Made by a program: the position numbers and the translations under genes | The notes under the pieces: model-generated | The model's database searches: none | Seen by the model: only the letters and a program-made list of their open reading frames with translations | Told to the model about the DNA's origin: nothing | Shown: positions 30,900 to 47,921 of the stretch, in pieces | How positions within the stretch are numbered: position 1 is the stretch's first letter | How the letters are laid out: the number at the start of each line of letters is the position of its first letter | Source of the DNA: a virus | Strand: one strand, 5' to 3' | Length of the DNA: 64,000 bases | Virus record (IMG/VR): IMGVR_UViG_3300045988_162923

Positions 30900-30905
30900 A
30901 AAAAA

Positions 30906-31810: not shown

Positions 31811-31861
31811 ATATGTTACCTCTTTATCTAATAGTAAAGTGATCTCTCACTTTCTAAATAT

Positions 31862-31890: not shown

Positions 31891-32201
31891 ATGGGCGGAT
31901 TGTCTAAATGGGCCGCGCTTTAAAAATGCTTTTTTTTAATATTATAACAAATTTTTTTAATATTGTCAAATGCCGGGCATATGATATAGTACCGATCGGC
32001 GCCCTGCGGGGGGCATCACTTTCGGGAGAACCAGGTCGCATATGGAGGCCACTGGATTGAGCAAAAATTTTCCATATGGGATAAAGGATCGGGAATTCGG
32101 TCCAACACCTCCGGCGTCGGCCCGCTAAACTATCCCTTATAAATATTGTACCACCCCAGGTCGCATTTGTCAATAGGCAAAATGAACAAAAAAAAGAGGG
32201 G

Positions 32202-32363
32202 TTATTCCCCCTCTTTTTCTCGCCGCTCTTTTTCCATTTCCGCAAGACGTCTGCGACGCTCCTTTTCTTCTTCCTCGCGTCTCCGGGCATTTCGTCGCAT
32301 GGTATTCATAGCAGTCGTACAAGCGACTTGAGTAGCAATCATAGCGCCTACATTGATAATCAT
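32202..32363 (-). CDS. Small Arg/Glu-rich peptide (53 aa)
   Basis: RBS GGAGGTAAAAAAATG. MIINVGAMIATQVACTTAMNTMRRNARRREEEEKERRRRLAEMEKERREKEGE. Confidence 0.35.
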   Translation of the reverse strand: MIINVGAMIATQVACTTAMNTMRRNARRREEEEKERRRRLAEMEKERREKEGE

Positions 32364-32375
32364 TTTTTTACCTCC

Positions 32376-32657
32376 TTAACAATCATAGGTGAAACAACCG
32401 GCGTAAGGGTCAAAGCCCTCATCGCTGTCAATGTCATCTGGTTCATCATCTTCATCAAGTTCATCAGGTTCATAAGCCAGAAAGAAAATTTTTGCGCCTT
32501 CATGTTGAGCTGCGAGGTCACGAGCTTCCCCGTAACTCGCACACGGCACACCCGCAAAAGTTCCGTCTCCCTTAACAACTGCCCACCGCACATCAGTCCA
32601 GTCAAAATTTTTCATGTTATCAGTTCCTTTTCTCTTGGATTGTCTATAGTATAGCAC
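32376..32657 (-). CDS. Hypothetical protein (~85 aa from internal Met), acidic C-terminus
   Basis: ORF from the track. The first ~8 codons of the track ORF are probably 5'UTR (promoter 32648-32676). Confidence 0.45.
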   Translation of the reverse strand: MLYYRQSKRKGTDNMKNFDWTDVRWAVVKGDGTFAGVPCASYGEARDLAAQHEGAKIFFLAYEPDELDEDDEPDDIDSDEGFDPYAGCFTYDC

Positions 32658-32676
32658 AAAAAGGGGCTTTTGTCAA
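32648..32676 (-). promoter_or_regulatory. Consensus promoter TTGACA-17-TATACT (minus strand), GC-rich-module type
   Basis: Reverse complement reads TTGACAAAAGCCCCTTTTTGTGCTATACT. Confidence 0.5.
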
Positions 32677-32686
32677 GCCCCTTTTT

Positions 32687-33274
32687 TCAAAATGGCAAAT
32701 CTTCTTCGTTGGAAAGTGTGGAATTGTAGTCGCTGGTAATTTCAGGAATGTCGATGAAATTTCTGGAAGCAATGTAATCCGCAAGATGGACAAGCCTGTC
32801 AATATTTGTAAAAGGTCTGTCCTCGCGGTCGGTACTCCATTGCCCCATGTGGGATTTAATGGCTTGCGTGAGCAGAAACGGAGCAGGTTCGTCAAAGTAT
32901 TCGCACCAGGCAGAATCTACCAATTTTGCGGCATTTGCGGCATGGTTGGGATATTCTTCCTTGTCAAAATCTTCTAAACCGTATTTTGCGGTATCGTGAC
33001 AGATACAAGCGACACGCGCAAGGTCTTTATATTCGTCTTTCATGTAAGCCCACTGAGACATTCTCAAAAGTTCTTCACAGAACGCGCAAACGGCTTTAGT
33101 GTGCCGAACTAGACCACCTTCGCCCTGAGAAAAAACAGGATGAAATTTTCCAGAACTTGAAGCGCCGATTTTCCAGAAATAGGACGGAACTTTTTCGTCA
33201 AGATAGAACTTAACGAACATTCGCAAATCTTCACTTTCGATCTGGTCGATTTCCTTGGAAAAATATTCAAACAT
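32687..33274 (-). CDS. HD-domain phosphohydrolase (CICHDTAKYG ... HLADYIASR)
   Basis: 195-aa ORF. H...HD...H...D metal-binding pattern of the HD superfamily. Confidence 0.6.
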   Translation of the reverse strand: MFEYFSKEIDQIESEDLRMFVKFYLDEKVPSYFWKIGASSSGKFHPVFSQGEGGLVRHTKAVCAFCEELLRMSQWAYMKDEYKDLARVACICHDTAKYGLEDFDKEEYPNHAANAAKLVDSAWCEYFDEPAPFLLTQAIKSHMGQWSTDREDRPFTNIDRLVHLADYIASRNFIDIPEITSDYNSTLSNEEDLPF

Positions 33275-33328
33275 ACGCTTTACCTTTCTGCGGTTGGTTG
33301 GGTTGTCCGCTCCCTTAACTGTATAGAC

Positions 33329-33357
33329 ATTATACCATACAAAAAAGCCGTTGTCAA
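33329..33357 (-). promoter_or_regulatory. Consensus promoter TTGACA-17-TATAAT (minus strand)
   Basis: Reverse complement reads TTGACAACGGCTTTTTTGTATGGTATAAT. Confidence 0.5.
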
Positions 33358-33412
33358 GCCTAACTTTTCCGCAGTTTTTGCCTAGGAAAAGGGCGATTTC
33401 TCGCCCTTTTTC

Positions 33413-33817
33413 TTAACTTTTTGGCTTTCTTTTCTGCGTGAGCGTCAATTCGTAGCAATTTTCACCAACTTTGAACGCAATCATGCGCTCTTTGTTCGTA
33501 ATTTCCACGTTTTCGCACGCATTTTCGCTGTTTTCAGCCAAAAAAGTTGCTAATTCCGCGATAATTCCGGCTTTAGTCGGATTTTCTTTGCGCTTGCGCT
33601 GGTCAAATTTGTAATTTGTCGGCACTTTGCGCGTTCCCGCGTTCATATATTTTTTAGCTTCTTTTTCCTGTTCTGGTGGCAAGTCAAACTCAACACGTTC
33701 ACCCTTGTCGATAGCGCGGTCGGCTTCCCACACGCTTTCCGCTTCTTCCTGCGTCCAGCCCATGAGCTTCATATTTTTGTCAATCCACGCCTGTTTGTCT
33801 TTTTCCTTTAATGCCAT
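33413..33817 (-). CDS. Hypothetical protein (134 aa); paralogue of 38668..39024
   Basis: Shared block FDLPPEQEKEAKKYMNAGTRKV / FELPPELEAGAKKARQTGTRKV. Confidence 0.5.
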   Translation of the reverse strand: MALKEKDKQAWIDKNMKLMGWTQEEAESVWEADRAIDKGERVEFDLPPEQEKEAKKYMNAGTRKVPTNYKFDQRKRKENPTKAGIIAELATFLAENSENACENVEITNKERMIAFKVGENCYELTLTQKRKPKS

Positions 33818-33869
33818 TTAATTCCACCTTTCTTCTGGATGGGGCGGATTGCTCCGCCCCGATTGGCAA

Positions 33870-34310
33870 TTACTGGTGAATACGGAAATAAGCTTTCCGC
33901 TTTTCCTCAACGCGGTCGAGCGTGCCATCCTTTACCATCTGCCGGACGATAGCAGAAACACGCTGGTTCGTCAGGTCTACGATTTCCGGAACGGACTTAA
34001 TCAGTTCCGTGATAGTGAACAGACGGGTCGGCTCTGCGGACATCACCGCCGCAATCGAGGTCTTGAAACCGTCGTTCGCCACCTGCGTGGCAGTCGGCTT
34101 CTTGTCAGCCGCGTTCTTCTTGGAAAGCAGTTCCAGCTCATGGTCGATGAAACCGATAACTGCGTCATAGTTGTCCGCGGTCTGCGGATACGCTTCACGG
34201 AGAATGTTGAAGTAGTCGCGCTTGGTCAGCTTGGAAGTAGTCTTAGTCATAGTATCAATTCCTTTCTGGTTTTTTAGTGTGTCCTTCACTTGATGAATAT
34301 ATTGTATCAC
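33870..34310 (-). CDS. Putative DNA-binding protein (~125 aa from internal Met MTKTTSKL); paralogue of 39068..39469
   Basis: Shared KKPTATQ.ANDGFK......LFTITELIKSVPEI.DLTNQRVSAIV.QMVK.G.L. Confidence 0.5.
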   Translation of the reverse strand: MIQYIHQVKDTLKNQKGIDTMTKTTSKLTKRDYFNILREAYPQTADNYDAVIGFIDHELELLSKKNAADKKPTATQVANDGFKTSIAAVMSAEPTRLFTITELIKSVPEIVDLTNQRVSAIVRQMVKDGTLDRVEEKRKAYFRIHQ

Positions 34311-35253
34311 AAACCTTGCGATTTGTCAATACCTAACTTGAATTTTTTTTGCCATCCTATCAGCCGCTACCTTCCAGCAAATGGTAGCTGTTGGTTCACA
34401 TTTATATCCCGCAACAATAGGACTCCGTGCGGAAGATTCTAACGAGAAAGTCTTACATCGCTCTCATGGGCTACGGTCATATTCACCGTTGCTTTCTCTC
34501 TCTTTTGTACCCTCATTGTATCACATCTGAGGGGCTTTGTCAAGAGGAAATTTTCAATTCCCAAAAATTTTTTTCGCCCCTTGGGAACTCTCCATTCCCT
34601 CTTGACATTATGTAGTATAACAGATACGCCTTAAAAAGTCTATTGGCAAAATGACGAAAATGGGATAAAATAAAAAGATTATTTTGTATAACTTTTCTCT
34701 TGACAAATTGCTGGCGGGGTGGTATAATGGAAATTCGGCGCCTCACATACGTGGGCGCCGCGCCCAAAAATTCCCAAGTAAAAAGGCGAAAAAAGTTGAG
34801 GAAATTTATTCCTCAACTTCGCACGCGGTTTCCAGAAGTCGGCAGAGCATGATAATATCATAAAAGTCAATACCTTCCAGTTCTTCTTGCCAGCAGAAGC
34901 AACCGCAGTATTCACCATTGACATTTACTGGATAGCAGCACCAGTTATTTTCAATTTTACGGACTTCGTTCATCTCAGGTGGAAAATAATGTTTCTTTGG
35001 TTCAGTGTTCCAATAGCTGATTGGCATACCGTCTGCCCCATACAGGGCAAACGGTTGACAATAATCTTCACACCACTTTCTCACAACTTTTATGAAAAAT
35101 TCCATTTTTAACCCTCCACCAGATTTTCCCTGATAAATTCATCATCTTCATAGAAGAATTCGCCCCATGAAAATTTACAAATCCAAAGGGCTTCATAATG
35201 GTCCCACTGGACAGCTTGGGCGATGTAACCGCCCTTTCTGAACTTTTTCCCTT

Positions 35254-35529
35254 TCATGCGTTAAAATCCTTCTTTCCATCAAGAATTGCTTCAATTTCAG
35301 AAGTGGTTAGGCGGTCAACCTTTTCTTCAATCTCGTGAAGAATTACTCCATCATCTCCACAAATTTCATCGGTGATGTTCAGCCATCCATTGTAGATGTG
35401 AAGCAGGACAAAATCACCAGATTCAACTGTTGCGCCACAACAACCGCAAATGATTTCGTCTCTGTCCTGATTCCAAATGCCGCTACAGACATTGCCCTCG
35501 TTGTCCATGAAAATAACCTGTTTATTCAT
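35254..35529 (-). CDS. Small Cys-containing protein (~91 aa; true start at second Met, MNKQVIF...)
   Basis: The track ORF starts MIYQKKGIDTM. The first 10 codons are the conserved 5'UTR (AAAGAAAGGAATTGATACA-ATG) shared with 37292..37573. Confidence 0.45.
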   Translation of the reverse strand: MNKQVIFMDNEGNVCSGIWNQDRDEIICGCCGATVESGDFVLLHIYNGWLNITDEICGDDGVILHEIEEKVDRLTTSEIEAILDGKKDFNA

Positions 35530-35583
35530 TGTATCAATTCCTTTCTTTTGATAAATCAATTATACCATACCACAGAGGCTTTG

Positions 35584-35988
35584 TCAAGCCTCTGTGGAAA
35601 ATTTATTTTTAATTTCATTTAGTTTTTCATGTTCTTCAATCCAGTATTTCCATGTTCCGTACCCATCTTCACAGAAATAATACAATCCGGGCGAATTAAA
35701 TACACCATTGATAATTTTAACAGGCTTTTCATAGCCCATTTCTTCAAAGAAATCATCAATAAATTGCGCGTCCGCATAGCTGTTAACGCGGATTGCCCAA
35801 ATACAATCAGGATCAGTATTGGAATTAAATGCCAGTAAATTTCCTGCCCGATTATAGATTTTCAAGCGGTTATCATCATCCGCCATTAAATCATTATAGC
35901 GGCAACCCCACTCATGACGGCGGCAGTCATCATAATCGTCAAATTCCTGTCCGCAATAATCGCACTTATAAATATTCAATTCTGTCAT
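35584..35988 (-). CDS. Hypothetical protein (134 aa) with N-terminal CxxC..C..C zinc ribbon
   Basis: ORF from the track. CDYCGQEFDDYDDCRRHEWGC. Confidence 0.45.
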   Translation of the reverse strand: MTELNIYKCDYCGQEFDDYDDCRRHEWGCRYNDLMADDDNRLKIYNRAGNLLAFNSNTDPDCIWAIRVNSYADAQFIDDFFEEMGYEKPVKIINGVFNSPGLYYFCEDGYGTWKYWIEEHEKLNEIKNKFSTEA

Positions 35989-36826
35989 GGTATCAATTCC
36001 TTTCTTTATTGTATAATTATTATAACATATTTTTATTTATTTGTCAAGCCGGTCGGGAATTTCTTTTTTATAATTTTCCCTAACCGGCTTACGCTTATTT
36101 CTCCCAAATGTCTTGTGCCAACCAGAAGAAACCAGTTCTTAAACGGGACTGAATCTCAAAAAGGTTATCACTCAGCTCTTGGATGTCCTCGCGGTCATCT
36201 TCAGCCGCGTCCTTTTTAGTAGCCGCAACATCTTCAGATAACTGAAGAATTTCTTCGGCAATTTTATTAAGTCTTTCAGCAATACTATTTGTCATTGTTC
36301 ATTCTCCTTACTTGTTCTCTCTTGGAACAATTATAGTATAACAAGTATCGGGAAAAATGTCAACTGTCATTTTACACAAATTTTGCCCGAAAAAATTGTG
36401 TAATGTGTTTAAAATCTAAAAATCCTCGCGCTTGGGCCGTGGGCGCGAGGCTGAAAGATTAACAGATTTTTAAAAAATCCAGAGAGCATAACCCTCTGGA
36501 TTTTATTTTTAGCCGTCAACATAAATAATAAGGGTATTGTCTTTGGTTTTCAAACCAGTAACAGGCAATCCCAATACCCATTCTTCGCTTGCGTCCAGAA
36601 GGTCTCCATTCAAGGTCATGCGGCCTTTGCGGTTTTTGAGATAGCGACCACAGGTATTTTCATTTATCACTTCAACGCCATTTCCATCATAAAACATCAG
36701 CGCTCCTTTTACAGTGCCGATTACATTTTTAATCATGCTCAAAGTCATTTTTATCAATTCCTTTCTTTTGATAAATAAATTATAGCACAAGAGGTTGATT
36801 TTGTCAAGCCCCTTGTGCTATTTTTT

Positions 36827-37279
36827 TTAACGTTCAGATGCGATACTAAGATATCGAACAATCATGTCCATTTCGCAACCCATGTCCTGCTGGTCGCAAA
36901 CCGCATAACCCACAAGGTCGCCGTCCGCACAAATCGGATAAACGCCATAAGTGTTATTGAAAACAAACGGCTTTCTTTTAAAATCCCACTGGGTCGAAAC
37001 ATAAGGCGGAAAGTTTTCCATACCACGCAGTTTTACGGTAGTGTCATAGATTGCGATGGGACGCAGACCAGAATTTGATGCCATTGTAATGGCAACCCGC
37101 AGAGCTTCTTCGGTCAAAGAACCAAGTACTGAATACCTCTTAAAGCAAACACAGTTATCATCTTCAATAAAGATTTCAAGAGGGTCTCCCTCGCGAATCT
37201 TCAAACTACGGCGGATTTCTTTCGGAATAACAACACGTCCAAGGTCATCAATTCTGCGAATAATGCCAGTTGCTTTCAT
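36827..37279 (-). CDS. AbrB/SpoVT-family transition-state-regulator-like protein (N-terminal swapped-hairpin DNA-binding domain GIIRRIDDLGRVVIPKEIRRSLKIREGDPLEIF)
   Basis: Textbook AbrB/SpoVT N-domain motif. 150 aa with extra C-terminal domain. Confidence 0.6.
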   Translation of the reverse strand: MKATGIIRRIDDLGRVVIPKEIRRSLKIREGDPLEIFIEDDNCVCFKRYSVLGSLTEEALRVAITMASNSGLRPIAIYDTTVKLRGMENFPPYVSTQWDFKRKPFVFNNTYGVYPICADGDLVGYAVCDQQDMGCEMDMIVRYLSIASER

Positions 37280-37291
37280 TGTACTTCCTCC

Positions 37292-37573
37292 TTAAAGATA
37301 AATAGTGCCTTGATCGCAAGCAGGCGGATTCAGTCTATCTACTGTAATATCAGTTTCTGCGTTCTGACCATCTTTATCTTCATACTCGACATGGAATGTC
37401 AAGTCTCCAACATTATCCAGATAGTCCTGAATAGCCTTGACGATTGTGTTCAGATATTTTCTTTCTTTGGCTTCATCTCTGTCTTGCTGTTCTCTGTAAG
37501 CAAGACCAATCAATGTGGCGATTTCTCCATCAGTCAAGCCTTTCAACATTTCTTCCATATTATTATCTAACAT
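37292..37573 (-). CDS. Small acidic protein (~93 aa; start at second Met)
   Basis: Same conserved 5'UTR + RBS as 35254..35529. Promoter 37603-37631. Confidence 0.4.
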   Translation of the reverse strand: MLDNNMEEMLKGLTDGEIATLIGLAYREQQDRDEAKERKYLNTIVKAIQDYLDNVGDLTFHVEYEDKDGQNAETDITVDRLNPPACDQGTIYL

Positions 37574-37602
37574 TGTATCAATTCCTTTCTTTTGATAAAT
37601 CA

Positions 37603-37631
37603 ATTATATCATATAAGGGCTTGTTTGTCAA
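37603..37631 (-). promoter_or_regulatory. Consensus promoter TTGACA-17-TATAAT (minus strand)
   Basis: Reverse complement reads TTGACAAACAAGCCCTTATATGATATAAT. Confidence 0.5.
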
Positions 37632-37885
37632 GCCTTTAAATTAAATTTTCTTCATAAAGCATTTCGCCTTTACTCCATCGTTGAAAATGTACATTCATAA
37701 GCTCCAGGTGTCTTTCATAATAATCGGCATCAGCAGGGTTCTCAAAATCATGCTCTATAACTACACCTGTCTTATCGTTAATCATACGAATAACTTCACC
37801 CTGATAAATTGGCTTATCCATAATTAGCACTCCTTTCTTTTGATAGCCCTATTATATCACAATAGGGCTATCTTGTCAACTCTTA

Positions 37886-38323
37886 TTATTTGATAGATAC
37901 GCAGTTAATACCGCGATCTTTAATCCATTCAATGAAATCTTCACCGCTGAGATTTTTTGCCAAATCTTCCATAGTAGGATGAACTTCACTAAATTTGTAA
38001 GTAATTGTAACCGGCTTGTAATTTTTCCAACTAAAAGTATAAATCTCAAAGCCAATTGCAGCGCGGACGCGAGGTTTTTTAAGGAAAAGCGTTTGTTGTA
38101 CTTCCAGACAAGGGATGGTATATTCATCCAGCAAATCCAAAAGGTCACCAAATGATTTACAGTAAAATTCGCGATCTTGCGGCTTCTCATCTCTAACAAG
38201 CAGATTATAGCCCCGCCATGTTAAAAGTTTGCTTTCTTCTTTGCCCCAATCCATAAAAATATTCATATCATAAATCTTTTTCATTGTGTTAATCCTCCAT
38301 CCAATCTTTAATTCTTTCAGCAC
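37886..38323 (-). CDS. Hypothetical protein (145 aa)
   Basis: ORF from the track. Confidence 0.45.
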   Translation of the reverse strand: MLKELKIGWRINTMKKIYDMNIFMDWGKEESKLLTWRGYNLLVRDEKPQDREFYCKSFGDLLDLLDEYTIPCLEVQQTLFLKKPRVRAAIGFEIYTFSWKNYKPVTITYKFSEVHPTMEDLAKNLSGEDFIEWIKDRGINCVSIK

Positions 38324-38667
38324 AATCTATACAATCAATGTCTCTTTCATCACACTGAGAATACAGTGGACAACAAGCGCAATCATTAAATGTCTCAACC
38401 CAACTTTCCAAGCACTCAGTTAGACGCTCGGTATTTACTTCAATGTTCATTAGGTGTTTCCTCCCTTAACCTTGTACCAACATTATAAAGCTTTTTGGGA
38501 GAAAAGTCAACCGTCAAAATACACAAAAAATGTGCGGAAAATTTGTTGAATGTTACTCTTGACAAAAATGACGCGCCCACTGGATTGTGGTCGCGCGGCC
38601 GAATTTCCATCTATTTCCAAATAATTTGGGTAAAAAAATTCCTCCCATTTTTTGGGAGGAACTTTTG

Positions 38668-39024: not shown

Positions 39025-39067
39025 TTTTTACCTCCTTTCGGAAGTGGGGGCAAAAGCCCCCATCCGG

Positions 39068-39469: not shown

Positions 39470-39613
39470 TTGATGAATTTATTGTATCACAAATCTTTCG
39501 ACTTGTCAATACCTTTTTAAGATTTTTTTTCGTATCCTTGGGGAGAAGTTCATCTCCCCTTGGAACATTTACATTGTATCACACTTTGCGGCGATTGTCA
39601 AGCGTTAATTTTC

Positions 39614-40120: not shown

Positions 40121-40184
40121 ATCAATTCCTTTCTTAATTTCTGTATTGATTATATCACATTCGGTCGGGTTTGTCAAGTGGTTT

Positions 40185-40844: not shown

Positions 40845-41333
40845 TTTTGGTAATTCCTTTCTTTTGGATGGGGCTTACCATCGTTTCCCCTATCCTTAAT
40901 TTCTGTATTGATTATAGCACATCAGGAGCTGTTTGTCAAGAGGAAATTTTATTTTTTTTTACACACGAACCGCGGAAGTTGTGTAGCCCAGCTAATGATA
41001 CCAAGCACTTTTAATCGCTATTCCCTCTTGACATTATAAAGTATATCACATGATGGGCGATTTGTCAAGAGGTTTTATATATTTTTTCAAGAAATCTTAT
41101 CTCAAAATGAGCGTATAACGTTTCTTTCCTCTTGACATTATAGAGTATATCACATTTCAGGATTTTTGTCTATTGGCAAAATACACAAAAATCCGCTCAA
41201 AAAATTAGTGAACATTCCCTCTTGACAAAATGGCGCGGCCACACAATCGTGACCGCGCGGCTGTCATTTTACAACTATTTCCAAAAAATGAATCAAAAAA
41301 AATTGGGAATCCAGATTTTGGATTCCCATTTTT

Positions 41334-41624
41334 TCAATCAATAGGAAGCGAATTGTAAGAAACGGGAGAAACAGTAATACCAACATTTGACTTCAACAAG
41401 AACTTGGCATCTTCTCCGATGTAATCAAAACTGTAAACAGCCCATTCCGTTTCAATATCTTCATCATCCAGCATCAGATTTTGCCAAGCTGGGTTAACAG
41501 CGGCAACCTTGTCAAAAATTGTCTGGACTGCTTCTTTTGCTTTTTCAAATGTGTCAAATGCACAATCCAAGTCTGTAAAATCAGCTTCTTCAAAATGAAC
41601 TACCCAAATAATCTTTGTTTCCAT
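41334..41624 (-). CDS. Small acidic protein (96 aa)
   Basis: ORF from the track. Confidence 0.4.
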   Translation of the reverse strand: METKIIWVVHFEEADFTDLDCAFDTFEKAKEAVQTIFDKVAAVNPAWQNLMLDDEDIETEWAVYSFDYIGEDAKFLLKSNVGITVSPVSYNSLPID

Positions 41625-41639
41625 TTTTTGTCAATCCTT

Positions 41640-41891
41640 TCAGAGTTCAGTAATATAATTATCTTCCATTGTCCAGACGGCACACAGATTATCGAATGAA
41701 AAATCTTTATCCATTTTTTTAAGTTTATTTCCGATATCTGTCAAAAAATTTTCGATATTTTCATCAAAATATATGTCTTCTTCTTCTGATGTTCCATCGA
41801 CATGATTACCATAATCTTCCATTGGCTTCCATTTATCATCAACTTCTACTTCAACTGGAACACATTTCGTGACATAAGCGATAAATTTCAT
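41640..41891 (-). CDS. Small acidic protein (83 aa)
   Basis: ORF from the track. Confidence 0.4.
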   Translation of the reverse strand: MKFIAYVTKCVPVEVEVDDKWKPMEDYGNHVDGTSEEEDIYFDENIENFLTDIGNKLKKMDKDFSFDNLCAVWTMEDNYITEL

Positions 41892-41906
41892 TTTTTACTA
41901 ATCCTT

Positions 41907-42161
41907 TCACATTTCAAAAATTGAATTTCCATTTACTGTATCTACGCACAATCCATCATAGGGAAATTCTGCCCGAATTTCTTCAAGAAACTCTGAAGCA
42001 AATTTATTGTAATAGTCAACTGCTTCATCTGGAGCATCATAAAATTCTGGATATTTTTCACAATCGCTTACCAGTTTATCCCATTTTCTATCAACTTCAA
42101 TTTCTTTTTCAATTCTTGCCGGATAAGACACAATAACTTTCATACCATCACCCCAAGGCAA
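41907..42161 (-). CDS. Small acidic protein (84 aa)
   Basis: ORF from the track. Confidence 0.4.
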   Translation of the reverse strand: MPWGDGMKVIVSYPARIEKEIEVDRKWDKLVSDCEKYPEFYDAPDEAVDYYNKFASEFLEEIRAEFPYDGLCVDTVNGNSIFEM

Positions 42162-42433
42162 TCAAAATTTTAATATCGGTCGCTTCTTCCATCAAGATTT
42201 CAAGCTGTTCGTCATTCATCTGTTATCCCTTCCTTTTTTCCCCAAGTGATAATTTTTGTGTAAGACTTTAATCCGAACATAAGTTTTTTCATGTCCAGAA
42301 TAAACAGGTCAGCGTCTCGTTCTGTGCGGAACTCTAATGTATTGCTATAATACAATCCCCTTTTATCAAAACCTGAATATTTGACAATAATATTTTTAGG
42401 AACCATTTTCTTATTTCCTTTCTTTGGAAGCGC

Positions 42434-42910
42434 TTAGCGCGCTTCCAGAATATTCCGCAGGATTTCAATGATATTTTCTTTTGTGGGGTCGATTGCTTCA
42501 CCAAGCGTCCAAGCGTTCCGCACTCGCGCATCATCATCGAAAATCAGTGCTGTTCCATCTTCTGGAAGTTCCCGCTTGACTACCTGATGTTTCGGTGTTC
42601 CATACTTGACTCCGTGGAAATGGTCAAAGGGAAAATCATGATTGCTCAGCCATTCTTTTTTTGCTTCTCTCACCGCTTTATCATAGTCGGGAGTGGAAAC
42701 CTTGCTCAGCCAAGTTACAACGGAAATTTCAATCCCGATAACGCGACACTGAGAAAGCAGGTTGGCAAGTTCTGCCATGTCGGTTAGAGGTTCTGCGATT
42801 TTATACGGGGTCGGGTCGGATGTTCTCAGCATTTCCAGCCAGTTCTCAACGCCATACAGGTCAGCGATAGTTCCATCCATGTCGAACACGATTTCTTTAA
42901 TCATTTTTTT
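42434..42910 (-). CDS. HAD-superfamily hydrolase / 5'(3')-deoxyribonucleotidase-like (FDMDGTIADL motif I); start probably at internal MIKEIVFDMDG
   Basis: Track ORF 42434..43180. Motif I DxDGT plus C-terminal FDDD motif typical of HAD phosphatases. Confidence 0.5.
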   Translation of the reverse strand, partial: KKMIKEIVFDMDGTIADLYGVENWLEMLRTSDPTPYKIAEPLTDMAELANLLSQCRVIGIEISVVTWLSKVSTPDYDKAVREAKKEWLSNHDFPFDHFHGVKYGTPKHQVVKRELPEDGTALIFDDDARVRNAWTLGEAIDPTKENIIEILRNILEAR

Positions 42911-43091
42911 TTCATTCCTTTTCGTTTTTGTATCTTGATTATAACACGCTTTTGCTTGTTTGTCAAGAGCCAGTTTTGAATTTCTGCGATATTTCCGCAC
43001 GAATTTTTTTCTCAGTTTGTTGTCAGGTTTTACACAGCGGGGACAATTTAAGTCCCACGCTGTAAAATCCTTACAAGTCCCTTTTTTCAGA

Positions 43092-43406
43092 TCATCCATG
43101 GAAAAAGCCCCGGATAATCTTTTCAAATGCGGGTTTGTAGTTTTCGGTCCAACGGCGCTCAAGTTCGGAGTTAGTGCCATTCACATAAGCGTCCCACTCG
43201 ATAGCGCCAAGGGCGTTGTGCTCGAACAGTTCGGCATCAGTAGGCATAGTCTCAGCAAAAATCAACTGCTGTTTGATATAAGCGTCAATAGTGAAGTTCT
43301 TCATTGTAATTACCTCGTTCCTTAACTTTGTACCCTTATTATACACCCTATTATTCTCTTTGTCTATTGGCAGAATACACAAATTCGGGATCAAATATTT
43401 TTTCAT
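43092..43406 (-). CDS. Hypothetical protein (104 aa)
   Basis: ORF from the track. Confidence 0.4.
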   Translation of the reverse strand: MKKYLIPNLCILPIDKENNRVYNKGTKLRNEVITMKNFTIDAYIKQQLIFAETMPTDAELFEHNALGAIEWDAYVNGTNSELERRWTENYKPAFEKIIRGFFHG

Positions 43407-43579
43407 TTTTGTTCAATTTTTCGCTTGACAAAATGGTTAGCCGGTGTTATAATGGAAATACCGGGGCTGGCAAACGTCGGCGGGCGGCCGCAAATCCTTT
43501 ATCCTTTAATTATAGCATACTCAGTTGAAAATGTCAATAGGCAAATTAAATAAAAATTAAAGCCCATTTGGGCTTTAAT

Positions 43580-43837
43580 TTACAAAATGTGGATTTCTGC
43601 GTCATAGGGATAAATGATCTGGTCACCTCGAACAAACTCCCAGTCCATTGTTTCAACATCTATGGCTGTTACATAAGTTCCATCTTCATCCATTAGCGGC
43701 ATAAGCTCATTAGCAATTTTCAAATAAATGCGTTCCGCATTATTAGACGGAGCAAAACAAGTGCCAATTGCTACATTCTTAAAGACAATAGGAGATTTCT
43801 TATTACATACAACTTTCATGTTATCAGCTTCTTTCAA
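43580..43837 (-). CDS. Small protein (85 aa); paralogue of 43834..44064
   Basis: Shared ..G.CF......D.LY.K.. Confidence 0.4.
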   Translation of the reverse strand: MKEADNMKVVCNKKSPIVFKNVAIGTCFAPSNNAERIYLKIANELMPLMDEDGTYVTAIDVETMDWEFVRGDQIIYPYDAEIHIL

Positions 43838-44064
43838 TACTCGGCGTGAATTTCTGCCCTTACTGGAAAAACATGGTGTTCATCATCAATCGCAGTATAA
43901 CCCATCACTTCAAGATTAACTGCGTTGATTGGTCCAATACTCTGTTCATAGAAAGATGGCATTTTCATGTAAAGAACATCAGAATTTCCAGTGGAATAGA
44001 AGCAATCACCAACCCTCAACTTGCTAAATTCAACTGCTCTAGTACCATCGCGAATAATTTTCAT
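43834..44064 (-). CDS. Small protein (76 aa); paralogue of 43580..43837
   Basis: ORF from the track. Confidence 0.4.
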   Translation of the reverse strand: MKIIRDGTRAVEFSKLRVGDCFYSTGNSDVLYMKMPSFYEQSIGPINAVNLEVMGYTAIDDEHHVFPVRAEIHAEY

Positions 44065-44645
44065 AGTATCAATTTCCTTTCTTTATTGTATAATTATTAT
44101 ATCACATTTTTATTATTTTGTCAATAGAGAATTTTATTGTCCAGTAGTTAAAACCACTGGACAATAAAAGGTACGGTAAAGAGAACGAATGAACGGATGA
44201 TAACATCGACAATGCTTTTCTTGTTTCCAGTAGCGAATTTCAGGACAGCGACCAGCCAGTCAATGACAAAAATAGCAATTACCAGAGTGAAGATAACCAT
44301 TTTCATTTTAAGTACCTCGCTTTCTTTTATATCATTATTCTATCATAGACTGGCTAGTTTGTCAACCCTTTTGTTCAGCTCTCTGCCAAAAAATTTTCAT
44401 AATACAGGTCAAAGTCATACGCATGGCAAAGATTTCCATGTACTCGAACTGGGGCAGATCAAAGTGCCAAGCAAAAATGTTCCAGCCCCACCAAATCAAA
44501 GCGGCAGTTGCGAACCACTTGCCAACTGTGTAGATAATCATGCTGATTGCCGCGCCTGCGGTCATGTTCTTGAAATCCATTGTTTTCATTTCCTTTCTTA
44601 ATTTGTACATTTATTATATCATGTAAGGGCTTGTTTGTCAAGCCC

Positions 44646-44960
44646 TTATTTCATAATCGCAGAAAATTCTTCTGTATGACCGCATTTATCGCAAGTGTAA
44701 TAATAATCTTTTGAGCCACGATAATTAGTAGCGCTAGAGAACTGATACTGACCACCGCATTCACAGTAACCATTATTCCAGCGGTCATGATTTCCTTCCG
44801 CGTCTTTATACAAAAGAGTCGCAACGCCAAAAGCGATAGCAAGCGCAACTAGAATGGCAATGATTTTGCCACGGCAAGTTTCAGGGGCAAGAAAAGCAAT
44901 CATCAGAGGGAAAATAGCCATAACTGCCCATACGATGTAAAAGCTCGGATTTGTAAACAT
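44646..44960 (-). CDS. Membrane protein with C-terminal zinc ribbon (104 aa)
   Basis: ORF from the track. Confidence 0.4.
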   Translation of the reverse strand: MFTNPSFYIVWAVMAIFPLMIAFLAPETCRGKIIAILVALAIAFGVATLLYKDAEGNHDRWNNGYCECGGQYQFSSATNYRGSKDYYYTCDKCGHTEEFSAIMK

Positions 44961-46051
44961 TGTAGTTACCTCATTCCTTAATTTCTGTATTGATTATACC
45001 ACATGGTAGCGGCTTTGTCAAGCCCTTTTATAAGAAAATTATTGCGGCAGAGAAAACTACCAGTACATAACCAATAGTTCCCATTATTACAGTGTGTCTA
45101 AACGCGCCATTTACATTCGCGTCAATGATAGCAAATCCGGCAAGGAATACCAGAAAAGCTATGAAGTATTGAAGTATTTTCATGTTAGAAACTCCAATGA
45201 CTTTCATGGTCAGCAAGCAAGGCTTCCCACATTTTGTTATAAAGCGGATAACCGCCCTCTTTGATACATTTTTCTCTGATAGATTCCCGAACCGCGAAAA
45301 TGCGGGCTAGTTCTTTATCCTGTTCTTGAAGCATAACTAAGTTAGCATCAAATTCCTTTTTGGTCATTGTAGTAACCTCTTTCTTAATTTCTACAGTTAT
45401 TATAGCATGGAATGGGGACTTTGTCAATCCCCATCACGCATTTTTTTCAGTTCTTCCAAAACTTCCCAAATCGCATTGTATTCTTCGTGGGAAGTCGCAT
45501 GGATGTTGGCAAAATTATTCAGGCTTTCATCATCCCAGCCATAGCGGTCGAGCCATGCGGACAATTTCTCAGCAAGTGTGTTCATAGTCATTGTGAATTA
45601 CCTCGTTCCTTAACTTTGTATCTTTATTATAACACCATGCTATTCTGTTTGTCTATTGGCAAAACGCACAAATTTCGGGAGAATTTTTTGTATAATATTT
45701 GTTCGATTTTTCCCTTGACAAATTGGCTGGCAGTATGTTATAATAAAATGCCGGCTAGTGGCGATTGTGGCCGGTGCGCCCATTTTATCATATTCTATTG
45801 GATTTGTCAATAGGCAAAATACACAAAAAATAAGGGGAATTTTCATTCCCCTTTGTGCGTCTTTTCGTATTCTTCAATCATGCGGCGAACCATCAGCCCG
45901 CCAACTGAATAGGTAGGCGCGGGATGCCCATTTACATAATCCTTAATGATGATTTTTTCATCCTCGGTCAGCGCGTCGAGCGTCTCTTTGAGTGCGTCAA
46001 GCTTTTTTACATCGAACATTTTTTATCAATTCCTTTCTTTATTGTATAATT

Positions 46052-46080
46052 ATTATAGCACGTTAAGTGCTAGTTGTCAA
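46052..46080 (-). promoter_or_regulatory. Consensus promoter TTGACA-17-TATAAT (minus strand)
   Basis: Reverse complement reads TTGACAACTAGCACTTAACGTGCTATAAT. Confidence 0.5.
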
Positions 46081-47334
46081 GTGTTTATTTCAGAAGTCCA
46101 AAGCCACAACGGAAAATAATAATAATTTCGCCGGTTGTATTGTCAACAACAATGTACTTGTTGCGCCAATGGTGCTTTCTACCAGTAGAACAACGCTGAG
46201 CAAATGTCATAGCATCATCCAGAGAATCCCAGTGAAGCGGAAATTCATAATCATTTTCATAAACATGATACATAATTTTTACTTCCTTTCTCCGGGACTT
46301 AATAGCCCCGGTTTTCCAAGCGGCACAGCCGACCAGCAAGGACGCCAGCCAGCCAAGTCTTAGACTGTTTCATCAGCCAAGCGGCGGTGCTCTGGCAGTT
46401 CGCCCAAATGTCCCAAGTCTGACCCTCGCGGATAATGTCCGCTTTCTTCATGCCCATGAGCTTGTTGTAGTAGGTGTTGTAGTTGTCAGCCATTGTTGTT
46501 ATCTCCTTCGTTCTTTGTGTCTTAATTATAGCATGAAGATTGCGGTTTGTCAAGCCCTAATTTTATTTTATTTCACCATTTTTAAAATACCCTGCGACGG
46601 GAATAAGTTTATAAGCTTCGGGATTTAGTCCATTATCATAGATAAATTTTTCAGCTGTTTCTTTGTCCTCAAAGACACAACCAGTGAATTCCAGACCGCG
46701 TTCGTATTTCATCAAACCAACCATTTTATTTGTCCCTTTCTTAATCAACGTATTCAGAATACAAAACTTTCCATTCAGCCGCATCCAGCTTACTTCTGTG
46801 GAAAGCATCAATTTCATTGTATCCAAAAATGATTTTTTCTTCCTGAGTGTTAATGTTCAAAATACCAAACTCAAACATGATTATTACCTCTCTTTATTTT
46901 GTATCTGTATTATAACACATCTGATAGCTGTTGTCAAGAACTAATTTTGCTTAATTCCACTCACGGCTGTTATAGTAGTCACGCACAGCATCCCATGCCT
47001 GAGACATAGAACCAGTAGCAAAACAGTAACCAGCTCCAAAAGAAAAAGAAGAAGCGGACACTTTGCGGCTAGGCACATGGCTATAATAGCCACGATCTGC
47101 GGAAAATGCTTTCTTCTGCTCATCAGATACGATGATAGATACTGTAGTCTTTGCCATGGTGTGTTACCTCATTTCCTTACCTTGTATTTGTATTATATCA
47201 TTTCGGGAACGCTTTGTCAAGCCTTTTTGCGCAAATATTTTACAGAATTTTTCTTTAGTACTTTAGCTTGGCGAAGTTCCGGAAACTCACTATCGTGTGC
47301 GGAAACTAACAAACGCAGAAAGAGCACGCTTTGC

Positions 47335-47643
47335 TTAGCGTGCTCTAACCTCGATGATTTCATCATCACAGATGGGTGATGTTCCCATGGTATTCATTAC
47401 CAAAAGAACCTTATCTCCAACGGACACATTTTCGTCTGTAGTACTCCATTCATTGCCCGCGCCATCTGTGTAGAATTGGACATTGCCATTGACTTCACAA
47501 ACAGTTGCGCTTCTCGCATAGATGTTATTGACATCCTGAGCTGGGTGTGCCTTAATGTACTGGCAGAGTAAGATAATGAGTAGGACAACAATGACTGCGC
47601 TGATAGCGCTGAAGATGTTCATGCGGCGTCTGATTTCTTCCAT
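47335..47643 (-). CDS. Secreted/membrane-anchored small protein (102 aa)
   Basis: ORF from the track. N-terminal hydrophobic helix. Confidence 0.4.
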   Translation of the reverse strand: MEEIRRRMNIFSAISAVIVVLLIILLCQYIKAHPAQDVNNIYARSATVCEVNGNVQFYTDGAGNEWSTTDENVSVGDKVLLVMNTMGTSPICDDEIIEVRAR

Positions 47644-47761
47644 AGTGAATACCTCTTTTCTTTACTGTATCTATAGTATAACACATTGCGGGAAACTTGT
47701 CAAGGGATAATTTTACACAAAAAGCACAAAAGATTTTTGTGACATTTGTATAATACGCAAA

Positions 47762-47791
47762 CTCGGCGCGCCACACCCGCCAGCGCGCCGA
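47762..47791. terminator. GC-rich perfect hairpin CTCGGCGCGC-N10-GCGCGCCGAG at the right boundary of the GC-richer module
   Basis: 10-bp all-GC stem seen directly. Marks the compositional transition. Confidence 0.5.
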
Positions 47792-47921
47792 GCAGCCTAT
47801 TGATGTGATGATTGTGTGTTATTTATTATGTGCTATTCATTATGTGTATAAATTATTATACTTATTGCGTGCTTGCGCACGTGTTCGCAGTCTTTGAGCA
47901 GCTTGAGATTGTGAGAGTTGC

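What the first reader, a model, noticed from the sequence alone, without database searches (positions are those of the whole stretch)
31900..47800. Compositionally distinct GC-richer module of very small genes, each with its own perfect TTGACA-N17-TATAAT promoter and a conserved 5'UTR; contains a duplicated two-gene cassette
From ~31.9 to ~47.8 kb, GC content is visibly higher (roughly 40-50% against ~30% elsewhere). Genes are mostly 60-250 codons on the minus strand in the standard code. Each is preceded by a promoter of the form TTGACA-17-TA(T/C)AAT, but with unrelated spacer sequences (for example 32648, 33329, 37603, 46052, and at least 20 more recognisable as '...TTGTCAAG...' on the plus strand). 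Several share an identical 5'UTR (TATAATTGATTTATCAAAAGAAAGGAATTGATACA-ATG), which the ORF track mistranslates as MIYQKKGIDTM. A two-gene cassette is duplicated (33413-34310 vs 38668-39469). The block ends at a 10-bp all-GC hairpin (47762-47791). Recognisable products are nucleotide-metabolism or anti-host-like: HD hydrolase, HAD 5'-nucleotidase, DnaQ-like exonuclease, AbrB/SpoVT regulator, and many acidic mini-proteins (candidate host-takeover/anti-defence proteins). It looks like a horizontally acquired or fast-evolving accessory early module.
Basis: partly seen in the sequence, partly recalled or inferred. Interest (0 to 1): 0.6.

Follow-up and report, generated by a model that had tools for sequence, protein, structure and literature searches.

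The report
Standard-code early gene module, recoded phage
This 16-kb block is probably the first-expressed "host-takeover" region of a roughly 200-kb human-gut phage that reads TAG as glutamine elsewhere; it has about 40 tiny genes, each on a host-type promoter, free of TAG and using different codons from the rest of the genome, with gene content reshuffled at the repeated promoter and leader sequences.

Summary
Window 31.3-47.8 kb is GC-richer (0.38-0.47 per kb against 0.24-0.38). It carries 42 minus-strand ORFs of 45-219 aa, 39 near-consensus extended -10 sigma-70/sigmaA promoters, repeated leaders, and a diverged duplicated two-gene cassette.

The module has no in-frame TAG and no TAG stops, and GC3 is 0.44 against 0.22.

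The module is not a recent foreign island. Fifteen related IMG/VR contigs have the same promoter-dense, GC-elevated, TAG-free block with a conserved core. Late-region GC is unchanged across sub-clades, while module GC3 of orthologues ranges from 0.25 to 0.75 and is highest in the conserved core.

The small ORFs turn over even between phages whose core genes are 92-99% identical, and homology blocks break at promoter/leader/start-codon junctions.

Best reading: a sigmaA-driven immediate-early host-takeover region (SPO1-like), translated in the standard code with host tRNAs, and shuffled by its regulatory cassettes as in T4 PeSLs. Expression timing and host are inferred.

One sub-feature is unexplained: a conserved multi-copy face-to-face promoter pair flanking a covarying GC hairpin, also present in the published phage phAss-1.

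I rate this a new variant of known kinds, of moderate interest.

The parts
31334..47791 (-). Whole module: 42 small TAG-free ORFs, about 36 minus-strand consensus promoters, terminators and composite elements. It is bounded by the GC hairpin at 47791-47762 and the terminator at 31362-31334.
47762..47791 (-). GC-rich hairpin (CTCGGCGCGC-11 nt-GCGCGCCGAG, then TTTG). It separates the upstream AT-rich, TAG-containing genes (AbrB-like, cell-wall hydrolase) from the module. It has the same CGG...CCGA form as the hairpins inside the composite elements.
32687..33274 (-). HD-domain phosphohydrolase, a core gene. Its nearest named relatives are gp32.6 of SPO1-like Bacillus phages.
33413..34329 (-). Two-gene cassette, copy 1: promoter P34329, a 60-nt leader, protein A (34250-33870, winged-helix) and protein B (33817-33413).
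38668..39509 (-). Two-gene cassette, copy 2: promoter P39509, a near-identical leader, protein A' (39430-39068) and protein B' (39024-38668).
40185..40844 (-). DEDDh (DnaQ-like) 3'-5' exonuclease, a core gene.
42434..42904 (-). Probable HAD-type nucleotidase or phosphatase, a core gene. All family hits are weak.
36827..37279 (-). TAG-free AbrB/SpoVT-type regulator. It is variable: absent from L001, 55% identical in L002 and 62% in L014/L015.
45626..45853 (.). Composite element a. In order: terminator 45853-45832; minus-strand promoter 45810-45782; GC hairpin; plus-strand promoter 45715-45744 facing the first; then promoter 45655-45626 (TAGACA -35).
43338..43581 (.). Composite element b. In order: bidirectional terminator 43581-43554; minus-strand promoter 43537-43509; GC-rich spacer; plus-strand promoter 43425-43453; promoter 43366-43338.
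34515..34815 (.). Composite element f. In order: terminator; GC hairpin near 34765-34735; plus-strand promoter 34700-34728; a TTTTGCCAATAGAC promoter; and a short hairpin unit whose 3' arm carries the -35 of P34543.
40911..41328 (-). Composite element c (degenerate). It holds bidirectional terminator 41328-41304, GC hairpin 41258-41233, and promoters P41172 and P41068. Those two promoters drive short units in which 5' GUCAAGAGG pairs with the CCUCUUGAC of the next promoter.
38482..38661 (-). Composite element d (degenerate): terminator, GGAAATTCGG followed by a GC hairpin, then promoter P38510.
36335..36500 (-). Composite element e (degenerate): terminator, GC hairpin followed by a T-run, then promoter P36363.
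31960..32224 (-). Composite element g: terminator 32224-32185, then promoter P32173 driving a non-coding stretch of about 170 nt. That stretch is about 72% conserved right after HD in sub-clade L003-L008. It contains the CGG..CCGAATTCCC hairpin and a CCATATGG...CCATATG repeat.
34335..34543 (-). Promoter P34543 with a non-coding stretch of about 180 nt upstream of cassette copy 1, a candidate RNA. It is present in L002 and absent from L001. No Rfam family matches it.
35527..35587 (-). Example of a class-I regulatory cassette: a hairpin enclosing the -35 (dG -22.6), a consensus promoter, and a 38-nt leader identical to that of P37631.
41334..42406 (-). AT-rich sub-block inside the module: four translationally coupled ORFs with GC3 0.18-0.34 and no promoters of their own. 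It is mostly absent from L001 and L002.

Best explanation
The block is the immediate-early host-takeover region of an uncultured human-gut phage of about 200 kb. The phage infects a Firmicute, probably a member of the Clostridia, and reads TAG as glutamine in its middle and late genes.

Proposed mechanism, with each step marked as shown or inferred:

1. On entry, host sigmaA RNA polymerase fires from about 36 near-consensus extended -10 promoters. Each drives one to three tiny ORFs that have a strong AGAAAGGA ribosome-binding site. The anatomy is shown; the timing is inferred.

2. These ORFs contain no TAG at all and use host-like codons (CTG, CAG and NNC rather than TTA, CAA and NNT). They can therefore be translated by the uninfected cell's standard-code machinery and tRNA pool. 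The AT-rich remainder of the genome contains TAG and waits for phage tRNAs and a suppressor. That remainder includes the phage sigma factor heading the late operon, a lysis-type hydrolase and a second AbrB. The composition and TAG pattern are shown; the causal reading is inferred.

3. A conserved core is kept across the clade: HD hydrolase, HAD phosphatase, DEDDh exonuclease, and two copies of a winged-helix plus HTH gene pair. The surrounding ORFan genes, many acidic and some membrane proteins, are gained, lost and swapped by homologous recombination between the repeated promoter/leader/terminator cassettes. The pattern is shown; the recombination mechanism is inferred by analogy with T4 PeSLs.

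4. Strong terminators and composite elements divide the module into seven or eight super-cassettes. The anatomy is shown; the function is unknown.
For: Promoters. There are 34 perfect promoters against 0.25 expected, and 39 sites with at least 11 of 12 matches.

Genetic code. TAG-sense ORFs restore long late genes. TAG codons in late genes align to Q 1005 times and to TAG 502 times in orthologues. TAG per 1000 codons is 0 in the module, 5.2 in middle genes and 11.0 in late genes, and 0 of 42 module stops are TAG.

Codon usage. Leu TTA is 6% in the module and 63% in late genes; CTG is 30% and 2%; Gln CAG is 74% and 34%. Glu GAA stays at 80% in both, so the shift is codon-specific rather than a uniform GC shift.

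Context. The window carries 19-20 phage tRNA genes, including Leu-UAA. The late operon starts with a phage sigma factor that has 3 in-frame TAGs, followed by TerL and portal.

Relatives. All 15 clade relatives have a promoter-dense, GC-elevated module. In the 11 I tested, the module is also TAG-free. GC3 of core orthologues ranges from 0.25 to 0.75 between sub-clades, while the late-region GC profile on the same contigs is unchanged. GC3 is higher in core genes and in genes with their own promoter.

Gene turnover. Small ORFs differ from L001 and L002, whose core genes are 92-99% identical. Homology-block ends fall in promoter/UTR/start junctions in 11 of 17 cases (p=3e-5) and 14 of 17 cases (p=2e-8), against 18% expected. 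Between 8 and 13 of 36 promoters have a stable hairpin around the -35.

Phage lineage and host. HD is closest to SPO1-like gp32.6, and TerL is closest to Enterococcus phages of about 140 kb. Homologous contigs are binned with Clostridia, Eubacteriales and Lachnospiraceae MAGs.

Literature. The SPO1 host-takeover module is described in PMC6873191, PeSLs in PMC2839356 and PMC4122927, and partial recoding with standard-code early genes in bioRxiv 10.1101/2021.08.26.457843.
Against: - There are no expression data, so 'early' rests on promoter type, TAG absence and analogy.
- The host is not identified, so 'host-like codon usage' is untested. The MAG binning is weak evidence.
- Consensus sigmaA promoters also precede a few AT-rich, TAG-containing genes outside the module (13965, 13125, 6647, 50610), so promoter type alone does not define the class.
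- Intergenic GC in the module is also raised (0.37), which codon selection alone does not explain, although GC hairpins contribute.
- GC3 varies from 0.18 to 0.74 among module genes.
- No module protein is homologous to a known host-takeover protein.
- BLAST block ends are biased towards conserved repeats, so the breakpoint statistic partly restates that the cassettes are conserved.
- No suppressor tRNA was found in this window.
Confidence: 0.7

Rival explanations
1. A recently acquired foreign island (a moron cluster) from a higher-GC phage or host, not yet ameliorated to the AT-rich genome.
For: Composition and codon usage are distinct. Each gene has its own promoter and terminator, as morons do. 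ORFan content is highly variable.
Against: - The same block, with its core genes, is present beside HD in all 15 clade relatives, down to 55% HD identity.
- The oldest (core) genes have the highest GC3.
- Module GC3 differs between sub-clades while the rest of the genome does not.
- The AT-rich genome outside the module uses the same promoter and leader architecture.
Confidence: 0.07
2. The GC elevation is a by-product of GC-biased gene conversion or repair in a hyper-recombining region, not of selection for host-matched translation.
For: The region recombines frequently. Intergenic GC is also raised to 0.37. Promoter spacers are GC-rich inside the module and AT-rich outside it.
Against: - The shift is codon-specific. 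Glu GAA/GAG is unchanged at 0.80/0.20 while Gln, Leu and the NNC codons shift strongly.
- GC3 is higher in the conserved core and in promoter-proximal genes than in the swapped ORFans.
- Sub-clade L013 has a promoter-dense module with HD GC3 of only 0.25.
Confidence: 0.15
3. The genes are not early lytic genes. They are constitutively expressed accessory genes, for example expressed from a prophage or carrier state: superinfection exclusion, defence or anti-defence functions.
For: Autonomous host-type promoters and terminators and a cluster of small membrane proteins (45.2-44.1 kb) are typical of prophage-expressed morons. AbrB/MazE-like and winged-helix regulators are present.
Against: - No integrase or repressor module was seen in the 64 kb.
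- A genome of about 200 kb with more than 19 tRNAs, its own sigma factor, a TerL closest to Enterococcus phages of about 140 kb and an HD closest to SPO1-like phages suggests a virulent lifestyle.
- The core enzymes (HD, HAD, exonuclease) look like nucleotide-pool or host-DNA functions of lytic early regions.
Confidence: 0.08

Closest known systems
[quoted passage not shown] 1998; PMC6873191)
   Same: A cluster of several dozen mostly small genes in a Firmicute phage. They form many short transcription units with very strong sigmaA-type early promoters and strong ribosome-binding sites. The phage uses its own sigma factor for later genes. HD is homologous to SPO1 gp32.6.
   Different: - No sequence homology of any small protein to SPO1 proteins or to any PHROG family.
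- No evidence that the module lies in a terminal redundancy.
- The module is compositionally and codon-wise distinct from its own genome, and is the TAG-free part of a code-15 genome.
- It contains face-to-face promoter elements.
PeSL (promoter-early stem-loop) cassettes in the hyperplastic regions of T4-like phages (PMC2839356, PMC4122927)
   Same: Repeated composite elements of a consensus sigma-70 promoter plus a GC stem-loop lie between ORFan genes. Differences between close relatives are insertions, deletions and replacements whose junctions lie between the stem-loop or -10 and the Shine-Dalgarno or start codon.
   Different: - The host is a Firmicute and the promoters have an extended -10.
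- In the clearest cases the hairpin encloses the -35 itself.
- Only about a quarter to a third of the promoters have such a hairpin.
- The shared repeat extends through a conserved leader of 30-60 nt.
- Mini-circle formation and terminator activity are untested.
Partial stop-codon recoding in gut phages (Borges et al.; bioRxiv 10.1101/2021.08.26.457843) and phAss-1 (PMC10607447)
   Same: The genome is TAG->Gln recoded. Structural, lysis and some other genes carry in-frame TAG, and a subset of genes stays readable in the standard code. The published model is that early genes use host translation. phAss-1 has a homologous face-to-face element and a promoter-dense, GC-richer end region.
   Different: Those papers do not describe a discrete, promoter-dense, compositionally decoupled early module, nor the regulatory-cassette shuffling. 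The words 'promoter' and 'early' do not occur in the phAss-1 paper.
Face-to-face (convergent) promoter switches, such as coliphage 186 pR/pL (PMC5001618, PMC3675496)
   Same: Two strong promoters fire towards each other over a short distance, which is expected to give transcriptional interference.
   Different: Here the -10 boxes are only about 37 bp apart and enclose a covarying 8-10 bp GC hairpin. The element is present in up to 4 full copies per fetched locus (2 full copies in this window) and in many phages. No repressor, operator or lysis-lysogeny context is evident.

Membership tests
SPO1-type host-takeover module | A cluster of many small genes in short operons with strong sigmaA early promoters and strong RBS | tested here: met
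   42 ORFs of 45-219 aa, 39 promoters with at least 11 of 12 matches, and AGAAAGGA-type RBS.
SPO1-type host-takeover module | Located in the terminal redundancy of the genome | tested here: inconclusive
   The module is internal in the window and in the 201-kb contig of L001. Several relatives' contigs end near it, but the physical genome ends are unknown.
SPO1-type host-takeover module | Proteins homologous to SPO1 gp37-gp60 | tested here: not met
   None of the 30 small proteins hits any PHROG family at E<=1e-3. Pfam gave only weak or unrelated hits.
SPO1-type host-takeover module | Expressed early; products shut off host processes | not testable with these tools
   This needs transcriptomics and toxicity assays.
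PeSL-type regulatory cassettes (T4-like hyperplastic regions) | A repeated composite of a consensus sigma-70 early promoter plus an adjacent stable GC stem-loop in intergenic regions | tested here: met
   8 promoters have a hairpin of dG <= -10 around the -35, and 13 of 36 have dG <= -6. The remaining promoters lack the stem-loop, so the feature is met for a subset only.
PeSL-type regulatory cassettes (T4-like hyperplastic regions) | Insertions, deletions and replacements between close relatives have junctions in the cassettes | tested here: met
   11 of 17 and 14 of 17 homology-block ends fall in promoter/UTR/start junctions, against 18% expected.
PeSL-type regulatory cassettes (T4-like hyperplastic regions) | The stem-loop terminates transcription; recombination yields mini-circles | not testable with these tools
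   This is an experimental question.
Code-15 (TAG->Gln) partially recoded phage | In-frame TAG in many genes, aligning with Gln in orthologues; TAG not used as a stop | tested here: met
   (TAG aligns to Q 1005 times and to TAG 502 times). No TAG stops occur in the module.
Code-15 (TAG->Gln) partially recoded phage | A phage-encoded suppressor tRNA(CUA) | tested here: not met
   None of the 19-20 tRNAs in this 64-kb window has a CUA anticodon. One could lie elsewhere in the genome, or be the Gln-like tRNA with an insert at 542-679.
DEDDh (DnaQ-like) exonuclease, for g40844 | Exo I (DxE), Exo II (NxxxD) and Exo III (Hx4D) motifs on an RNase-H-like fold | tested here: met
   D10, E12, N103, D107, H178 and D183 are invariant in 18 sequences. 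The AlphaFold2 model has pLDDT 87.5. Foldseek hits are REXO2/Orn, TREX1, ExoI and a DnaQ domain, with TM-scores of 0.5-0.57. No Pfam hit was found.
HAD 5'-nucleotidase, for g42904 | A significant match to a HAD family model with the DxD motif | tested here: inconclusive
   PF00702 scores 17.3 bits, below the cutoff of 26.4. PHROG hits for 5'-3' deoxyribonucleotidase and PNK have E of about 1e-5. An N-terminal FDMDGT motif is present.

The most novel reading that the evidence does not exclude
One phage genome runs two translation regimes, and this may be general in code-15 Firmicute gut phages.

The first regime is an immediate-early module written in standard code. Its codon usage is kept matched to each lineage's host, with module GC3 of 0.25-0.75 across sub-clades. 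The second regime is the rest of the genome, fixed at low GC, dependent on phage tRNAs and using TAG as Gln.

The module is also partitioned by a previously undescribed multi-copy element. This is a face-to-face pair of consensus promoters about 37 bp apart around a covarying 8-10 bp GC hairpin, with one start site placed so that its RNA begins with the hairpin. I propose that it acts as a bidirectional insulator and/or makes an antisense sRNA of about 95 nt that gates each super-cassette.
Probability: 0.35. Interest if true: 0.7.

Novelty: new variant of a known kind. Interest (0 to 1): 0.55.

Why it matters
The finding gives a concrete, sequence-defined picture of how a stop-codon-recoded phage boots up. 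A self-contained block can be transcribed by host polymerase and translated by an unmodified host, ahead of the sigma factor, lysis and structural genes that need TAG suppression.

The decoupling of early-module codon usage from the rest of the genome across sub-clades offers a testable handle on host range and on why such phages carry large tRNA sets.

The module is also a rich, rapidly exchanging reservoir of about 35 ORFan proteins per genome. These are candidates for host-takeover or anti-defence functions in abundant, uncultured phages that probably infect gut Clostridia.

The consensus promoter and leader cassettes, and the face-to-face promoter/hairpin element, are candidate parts for expression control in Firmicutes.

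Tried and rejected
- Megablast of the module against GenBank phages found nothing. The clade is absent from isolate collections. A sensitive search with an element from relative L003 found only the face-to-face element in phAss-1, and the window's TerL matched Enterococcus phages.
- Rfam found no family in the module at gathering threshold or at E<=1. The weak miRNA-like hits are just long hairpins.
- The RNA-structure test of the conserved non-coding stretch after P32173 showed little covariation (4 of 39 pairs). The result is unresolved.
- TGA or TAA reassignment is rejected. Only TAG-sense reading restores the late ORFs.
- I considered integron attC-like sites for the GC hairpins. I rejected this because the cassettes carry their own promoters, no integrase is present, and the hairpins sit at a fixed register between two promoters.
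- I considered RNase III processing sites. The stems of 8-10 bp are too short. The longer GUCAAGAGG...CCUCUUGAC stems (10-14 bp) and sense/antisense duplexes remain possible substrates.
- PDB sequence searches for the exonuclease and for cassette protein A found nothing useful, so structure prediction was needed.
- Host identification through genome contigs yielded only phage contigs binned into Clostridia, Eubacteriales and Lachnospiraceae MAGs. This is suggestive, not proof.
- I looked for a suppressor tRNA among the two tRNA calls that ARAGORN missed. One has a CAT anticodon and the other has an unexplained insert of about 65 nt.

Full report
1. THE OBSERVATION

A 1-kb composition profile gives GC of 0.38-0.47 from 32 to 48 kb, against 0.24-0.38 elsewhere. 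The strict pattern TTGACA-N16-18-TAYAAT occurs 34 times in the window, where shuffles give 0.25. Thirty of these lie between 31.0 and 47.3 kb, and 27 of those are on the minus strand. The consensus scan finds 39 sites with at least 11 of 12 matches in 31-48.5 kb, nearly all with a TG extended -10. It also finds 40 terminator-like hairpins against 14.5 expected.

Reading the minus strand and scoring start sites, I curated 42 ORFs of 45-219 aa between 47643 and 31433.

- The exact string TATAATTGATTTATCAAAAGAAAGGAATTGATACAATG occurs twice. The shorter GAAAGGAATTGATAYNATG occurs seven times.
- The two-gene cassette is duplicated. It is an old duplication: protein A is 61% identical between copies and protein B 40%. 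The 98-nt promoter plus leader is about 94% identical.
- The hairpin at 47762-47791 exists, with a stem of 9 GC pairs and 1 TA pair.

I would move the left boundary to about 31.33 kb so that it includes g31810 and its terminator.

Treating TAG as sense turns the fragmented plus-strand region at 50.7-63.7 kb into long ORFs, and the same holds for several minus-strand genes. TGA- or TAA-sense reading does not do this.

- With TAG read as Gln, the late operon encodes a phage sigma factor (phrog_5767, 1e-52, three in-frame TAGs), then TerL and portal.
- TAG codons in the window's late genes align with Gln 1005 times and with TAG 502 times in orthologues from other contigs. The reassignment is therefore code 15.
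- TAG occurs 11.0 times per 1000 codons in late genes, 5.2 in the minus-strand genes left of 28 kb, and 0 in the module. None of the 42 module genes uses TAG as its stop (27 TAA, 15 TGA).
- Immediately upstream of the module, on the same strand, lie AT-rich genes. Several carry in-frame TAG, including an AbrB-like gene with two TAGs; a TAG-free SleB-type cell-wall hydrolase lies among them. The GC hairpin separates these genes from the module.

3. COMPOSITION IS A CODON-USAGE DIFFERENCE, AND IT IS DECOUPLED FROM THE GENOME

GC1/GC2/GC3 are 0.50/0.34/0.44 in the module and 0.42/0.33/0.22 outside it.

| Codon share | Module | Late genes |
|---|---|---|
| Leu TTA | 6% | 63% |
| Leu CTG | 30% | 2% |
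| Gln CAG | 74% | 34% |
| Glu GAA | 80% | 83% |

NNC codons rise two- to six-fold in the module. Because Glu GAA is essentially unchanged, this is not a uniform GC shift. The window carries 19-20 tRNA genes, including Leu-UAA, Arg-ACG, Pro-UGG and Ser-UGA. The cognate codons of these four are the ones enriched in late genes.

4. RELATIVES

A scan of IMG/VR with the HD protein returned 15 contigs of the same clade (55-97% identity; contigs of 12-201 kb, most over 65 kb). It also returned distant HD homologues that lack the module.

- Every clade member has 4-25 perfect promoters within 11-20 kb around HD, and GC is raised. The rise reaches 54% in some contigs, while L013 stays at 27-36%.
- In the 11 contigs I tested, module ORF coverage is the same under code 11 and under TAG-sense reading (about 0.70 and 0.72). 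In their late regions it is about 0.55 and 0.81.
- A scan with a capsid-region protein found at least 174 clade contigs. On contigs where both regions were fetched, the late-region GC profile is almost identical (27-42% per kb; orthologue GC3 0.31-0.33). HD GC3 on the same contigs is 0.43-0.45 in the window's sub-clade and 0.65-0.67 in L004-L008.
- Across all relatives, core-orthologue GC3 runs from 0.25 (L013) to 0.75 (L014/15).
- Within the window, GC3 is higher in the seven core genes than in the others (0.52 against 0.37, p=0.003). It is also higher in genes with their own promoter (0.43 against 0.34, p=0.014).

A recently imported island should show the reverse pattern, so I reject that reading. 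The data fit selection on early genes to match the host's tRNA pool. GC-biased conversion in a recombining region is a weaker alternative.

5. GENE FLUX AND WHERE IT HAPPENS

Against L001 and L002, the core genes (HD, cassette proteins, exonuclease, HAD) are 92-99% identical. Yet many small ORFs are missing, replaced or relocated.

Ends of homology blocks of at least 150 bp fall in promoter/UTR cassettes, or within a few bases of a start codon, in 11 of 17 cases for L001 and 14 of 17 for L002. The expected share is 18% (p=3e-5 and p=2e-8). Examples are ends 1-6 nt from the ATG of g42406, g38284, g36295 and g35257.

About a quarter to a third of the promoters sit in a stable hairpin that encloses the -35, for example GGGGCTTGACAAAAGCCCCTTTTT.

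This is the anatomy and behaviour described for PeSL cassettes of T4-like phages (PMC2839356, PMC4122927), here in a Firmicute phage and extended through a conserved leader.

One caveat applies. BLAST ends are drawn towards repeats, so the statistic partly restates that regulatory cassettes are conserved while ORFs are swapped. That, however, is the point being made.

6. GENE PRODUCTS

- HD hydrolase: PF01966 and phrog_5889. The nearest named relatives are gp32.6 of SPO1-like phages.
- g40844: a DEDDh exonuclease, shown by invariant motif residues, a confident model (pLDDT 87.5), and Foldseek hits to Orn/REXO2, TREX1, ExoI and a DnaQ domain.
- g42904: only weakly HAD-like.
- g37279: AbrB/SpoVT-like.
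- Cassette protein A: a helical N-terminus and a C-terminal winged helix, with weak MarR/ArsR/TubR matches. It belongs to a family of more than 2000 clusters.
- Cassette protein B': a weak HTH-like N-terminus.
- Other properties: twenty of 42 proteins have pI <= 5.0, and five clustered ORFs look like small membrane proteins.
- Homology of the small proteins: none of the 30 I scanned hits a PHROG family. Homology to known host-takeover proteins is therefore not shown, and the anti-defence idea remains open.

7. THE COMPOSITE ELEMENTS

Seven or eight times, a strong terminator is followed by a conserved element (alignment A1).

Its full form is TTTGTGYATTTTGCCTA-TTGACA-17-TATAAT, then 2-4 nt, then an 8-10 bp GC stem with a 9-11 nt loop, then (G)AAATTTCC, then ATTATA-17-TGTCAA. 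That is, two consensus promoters face each other across about 37 bp. A further promoter with a weak -35 follows.

- The window has two full copies (45810/45715 and 43537/43425). It has one copy with only the reverse promoter (34700) and several degenerate ones.
- The window plus L001-L008 hold 21 distinct full copies.
- An exact-pattern scan of IMG/VR found 103 stretches. About half are of this GC-hairpin type, and some are on other contigs.
- Across 61 distinct centres from 51 loci, the hairpin keeps its register: 3 unpaired nt on one side and 8 on the other. Its arms take 41 different sequences, and only 20 of 555 pairs are G-U.
- The asymmetry places the reverse promoter's start site at the foot of the hairpin. 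Its RNA would begin with the hairpin and end at the upstream bidirectional terminator, giving a length of about 95-125 nt.
- The published code-15 phage phAss-1 has a homologous element. Its 17-kb end region has 16 perfect promoters and GC of about 50%, against 44.5% genome-wide. The phAss-1 paper does not discuss promoters.

I cannot assign a function. My working hypothesis is an insulator, a transcriptional-interference unit, and/or a small antisense RNA.

Short units downstream fold so that a 5' GUCAAGAGG pairs with the CCUCUUGAC of the next promoter (z of about -3.3 to -3.9 for three of the four units, -1.7 for the fourth).

8. PLACING THE PHAGE

- The HD protein was found in human-gut metagenome assemblies.
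- TerL is about 67% identical at the nucleotide level to Enterococcus phages of about 140 kb.
- Homologous contigs are binned with Clostridia, Eubacteriales and Lachnospiraceae MAGs.
- The extended AGAAAGGA Shine-Dalgarno sequence and the TG-extended -10 are typical of Firmicutes (my own knowledge).

9. VERDICT

The feature is real and is more than chance. It is best explained as the sigmaA-driven, standard-code, host-codon-matched immediate-early host-takeover region of a code-15 Firmicute gut phage, with PeSL-like cassette shuffling.

[quoted passage not shown] It is not a homologous member of either.

It also fits, and sharpens, the published model that recoded phages translate their early genes in the host code.

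New here are:
- the discrete compositional and codon decoupling, conserved across a large clade;
- the breakpoint evidence in a Firmicute phage;
- the face-to-face promoter/hairpin element.

Expression timing, host identity and the function of the element are inferred or unknown.

Noticed in passing
window 50739-63741 (+), 8476-10576 (-), 14665-16566 (-), 22523-23326 (-), 29026-29682 (+): Outside the module the genome is TAG->Gln recoded. Genes carry up to 10 in-frame TAGs, and these align with Gln or TAG in orthologues.
   Followed up: yes
window 50582-51806: Divergent consensus promoters lie at 50610 (-) and 50689 (+). The plus-strand one precedes a phage sigma factor gene (50742-51806) that has 3 in-frame TAGs, so the late sigma factor could only be made in full after TAG suppression begins.
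   Followed up: partly
window 47920-49149 (-): Just upstream of the module lie an AbrB/SpoVT-like gene with two in-frame TAGs (48191-47920) and a SleB-type cell-wall hydrolase (49149-48571). The AbrB-like gene is a paralogue in kind of the TAG-free AbrB inside the module (37279-36827). It could be a late-made regulator of the early promoters.
   Followed up: partly
window 542-679 (-): Rfam calls a tRNA of 138 nt here that ARAGORN misses. It has a Gln-like D-arm and acceptor stem, with an insert of about 65 nt in the anticodon loop. No tRNA with a CUA anticodon was found in the window, so this might be the suppressor after processing.
   Followed up: partly
window 7093-7164 (-) and 8272-8343 (-): Two odd tRNA calls: one with a 4-base anticodon (gtag, type unknown) and a tRNA-Phe with anticodon AAA.
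   Followed up: no
window 43425-43537, 45715-45810, 34700-34765; L003 4748, L005 6390, L218 (phAss-1) 5146-5284, and others: A face-to-face pair of consensus promoters about 37 bp apart around a covarying 8-10 bp GC hairpin. It is multi-copy, conserved across sub-clades, and present in phAss-1. Its function is unknown.
   Followed up: yes
window 34335-34543 (-) and 31960-32173 (-): Two promoter-driven stretches of about 170-180 nt with no convincing ORF and no Rfam match. The second is about 72% conserved after HD in L003-L008 but shows little covariation.
   Followed up: partly
window 41334-42406 (-): An AT-rich sub-block of four translationally coupled acidic ORFs lies inside the GC-rich module (GC3 0.18-0.34). 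They have no promoters of their own and are largely absent from L001 and L002. This may be a recent insertion.
   Followed up: partly
window 42434-43180 (-): The standard-code ORF runs from 43180 through promoter P42966 into the HAD gene (248 aa). A small Cys-rich ORF starting near 43097 has no stop of its own and reads through the promoter in frame.
   Followed up: no
window 45843-46019 (-): This 58-aa protein has a 16-residue match to alpha/beta-type small acid-soluble spore proteins (PF00269, 23.2 bits, just above the cutoff). If real, it hints at a spore-forming host.
   Followed up: no
window 28200-31300 (+): A short plus-strand block that is very AT-rich and TAG-rich (8 TAGs in 29029-29682), with strongly positive GC skew. 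It converges on the left end of the module.
   Followed up: no
window 53026-54759 (+): TerL is about 67% identical at the nucleotide level to TerL of Enterococcus phages of about 140 kb (H1, VRE9_x, EF1/EF5). Together with the HD link to SPO1-like phages, this places the clade near large isolated phages of Firmicutes.
   Followed up: partly
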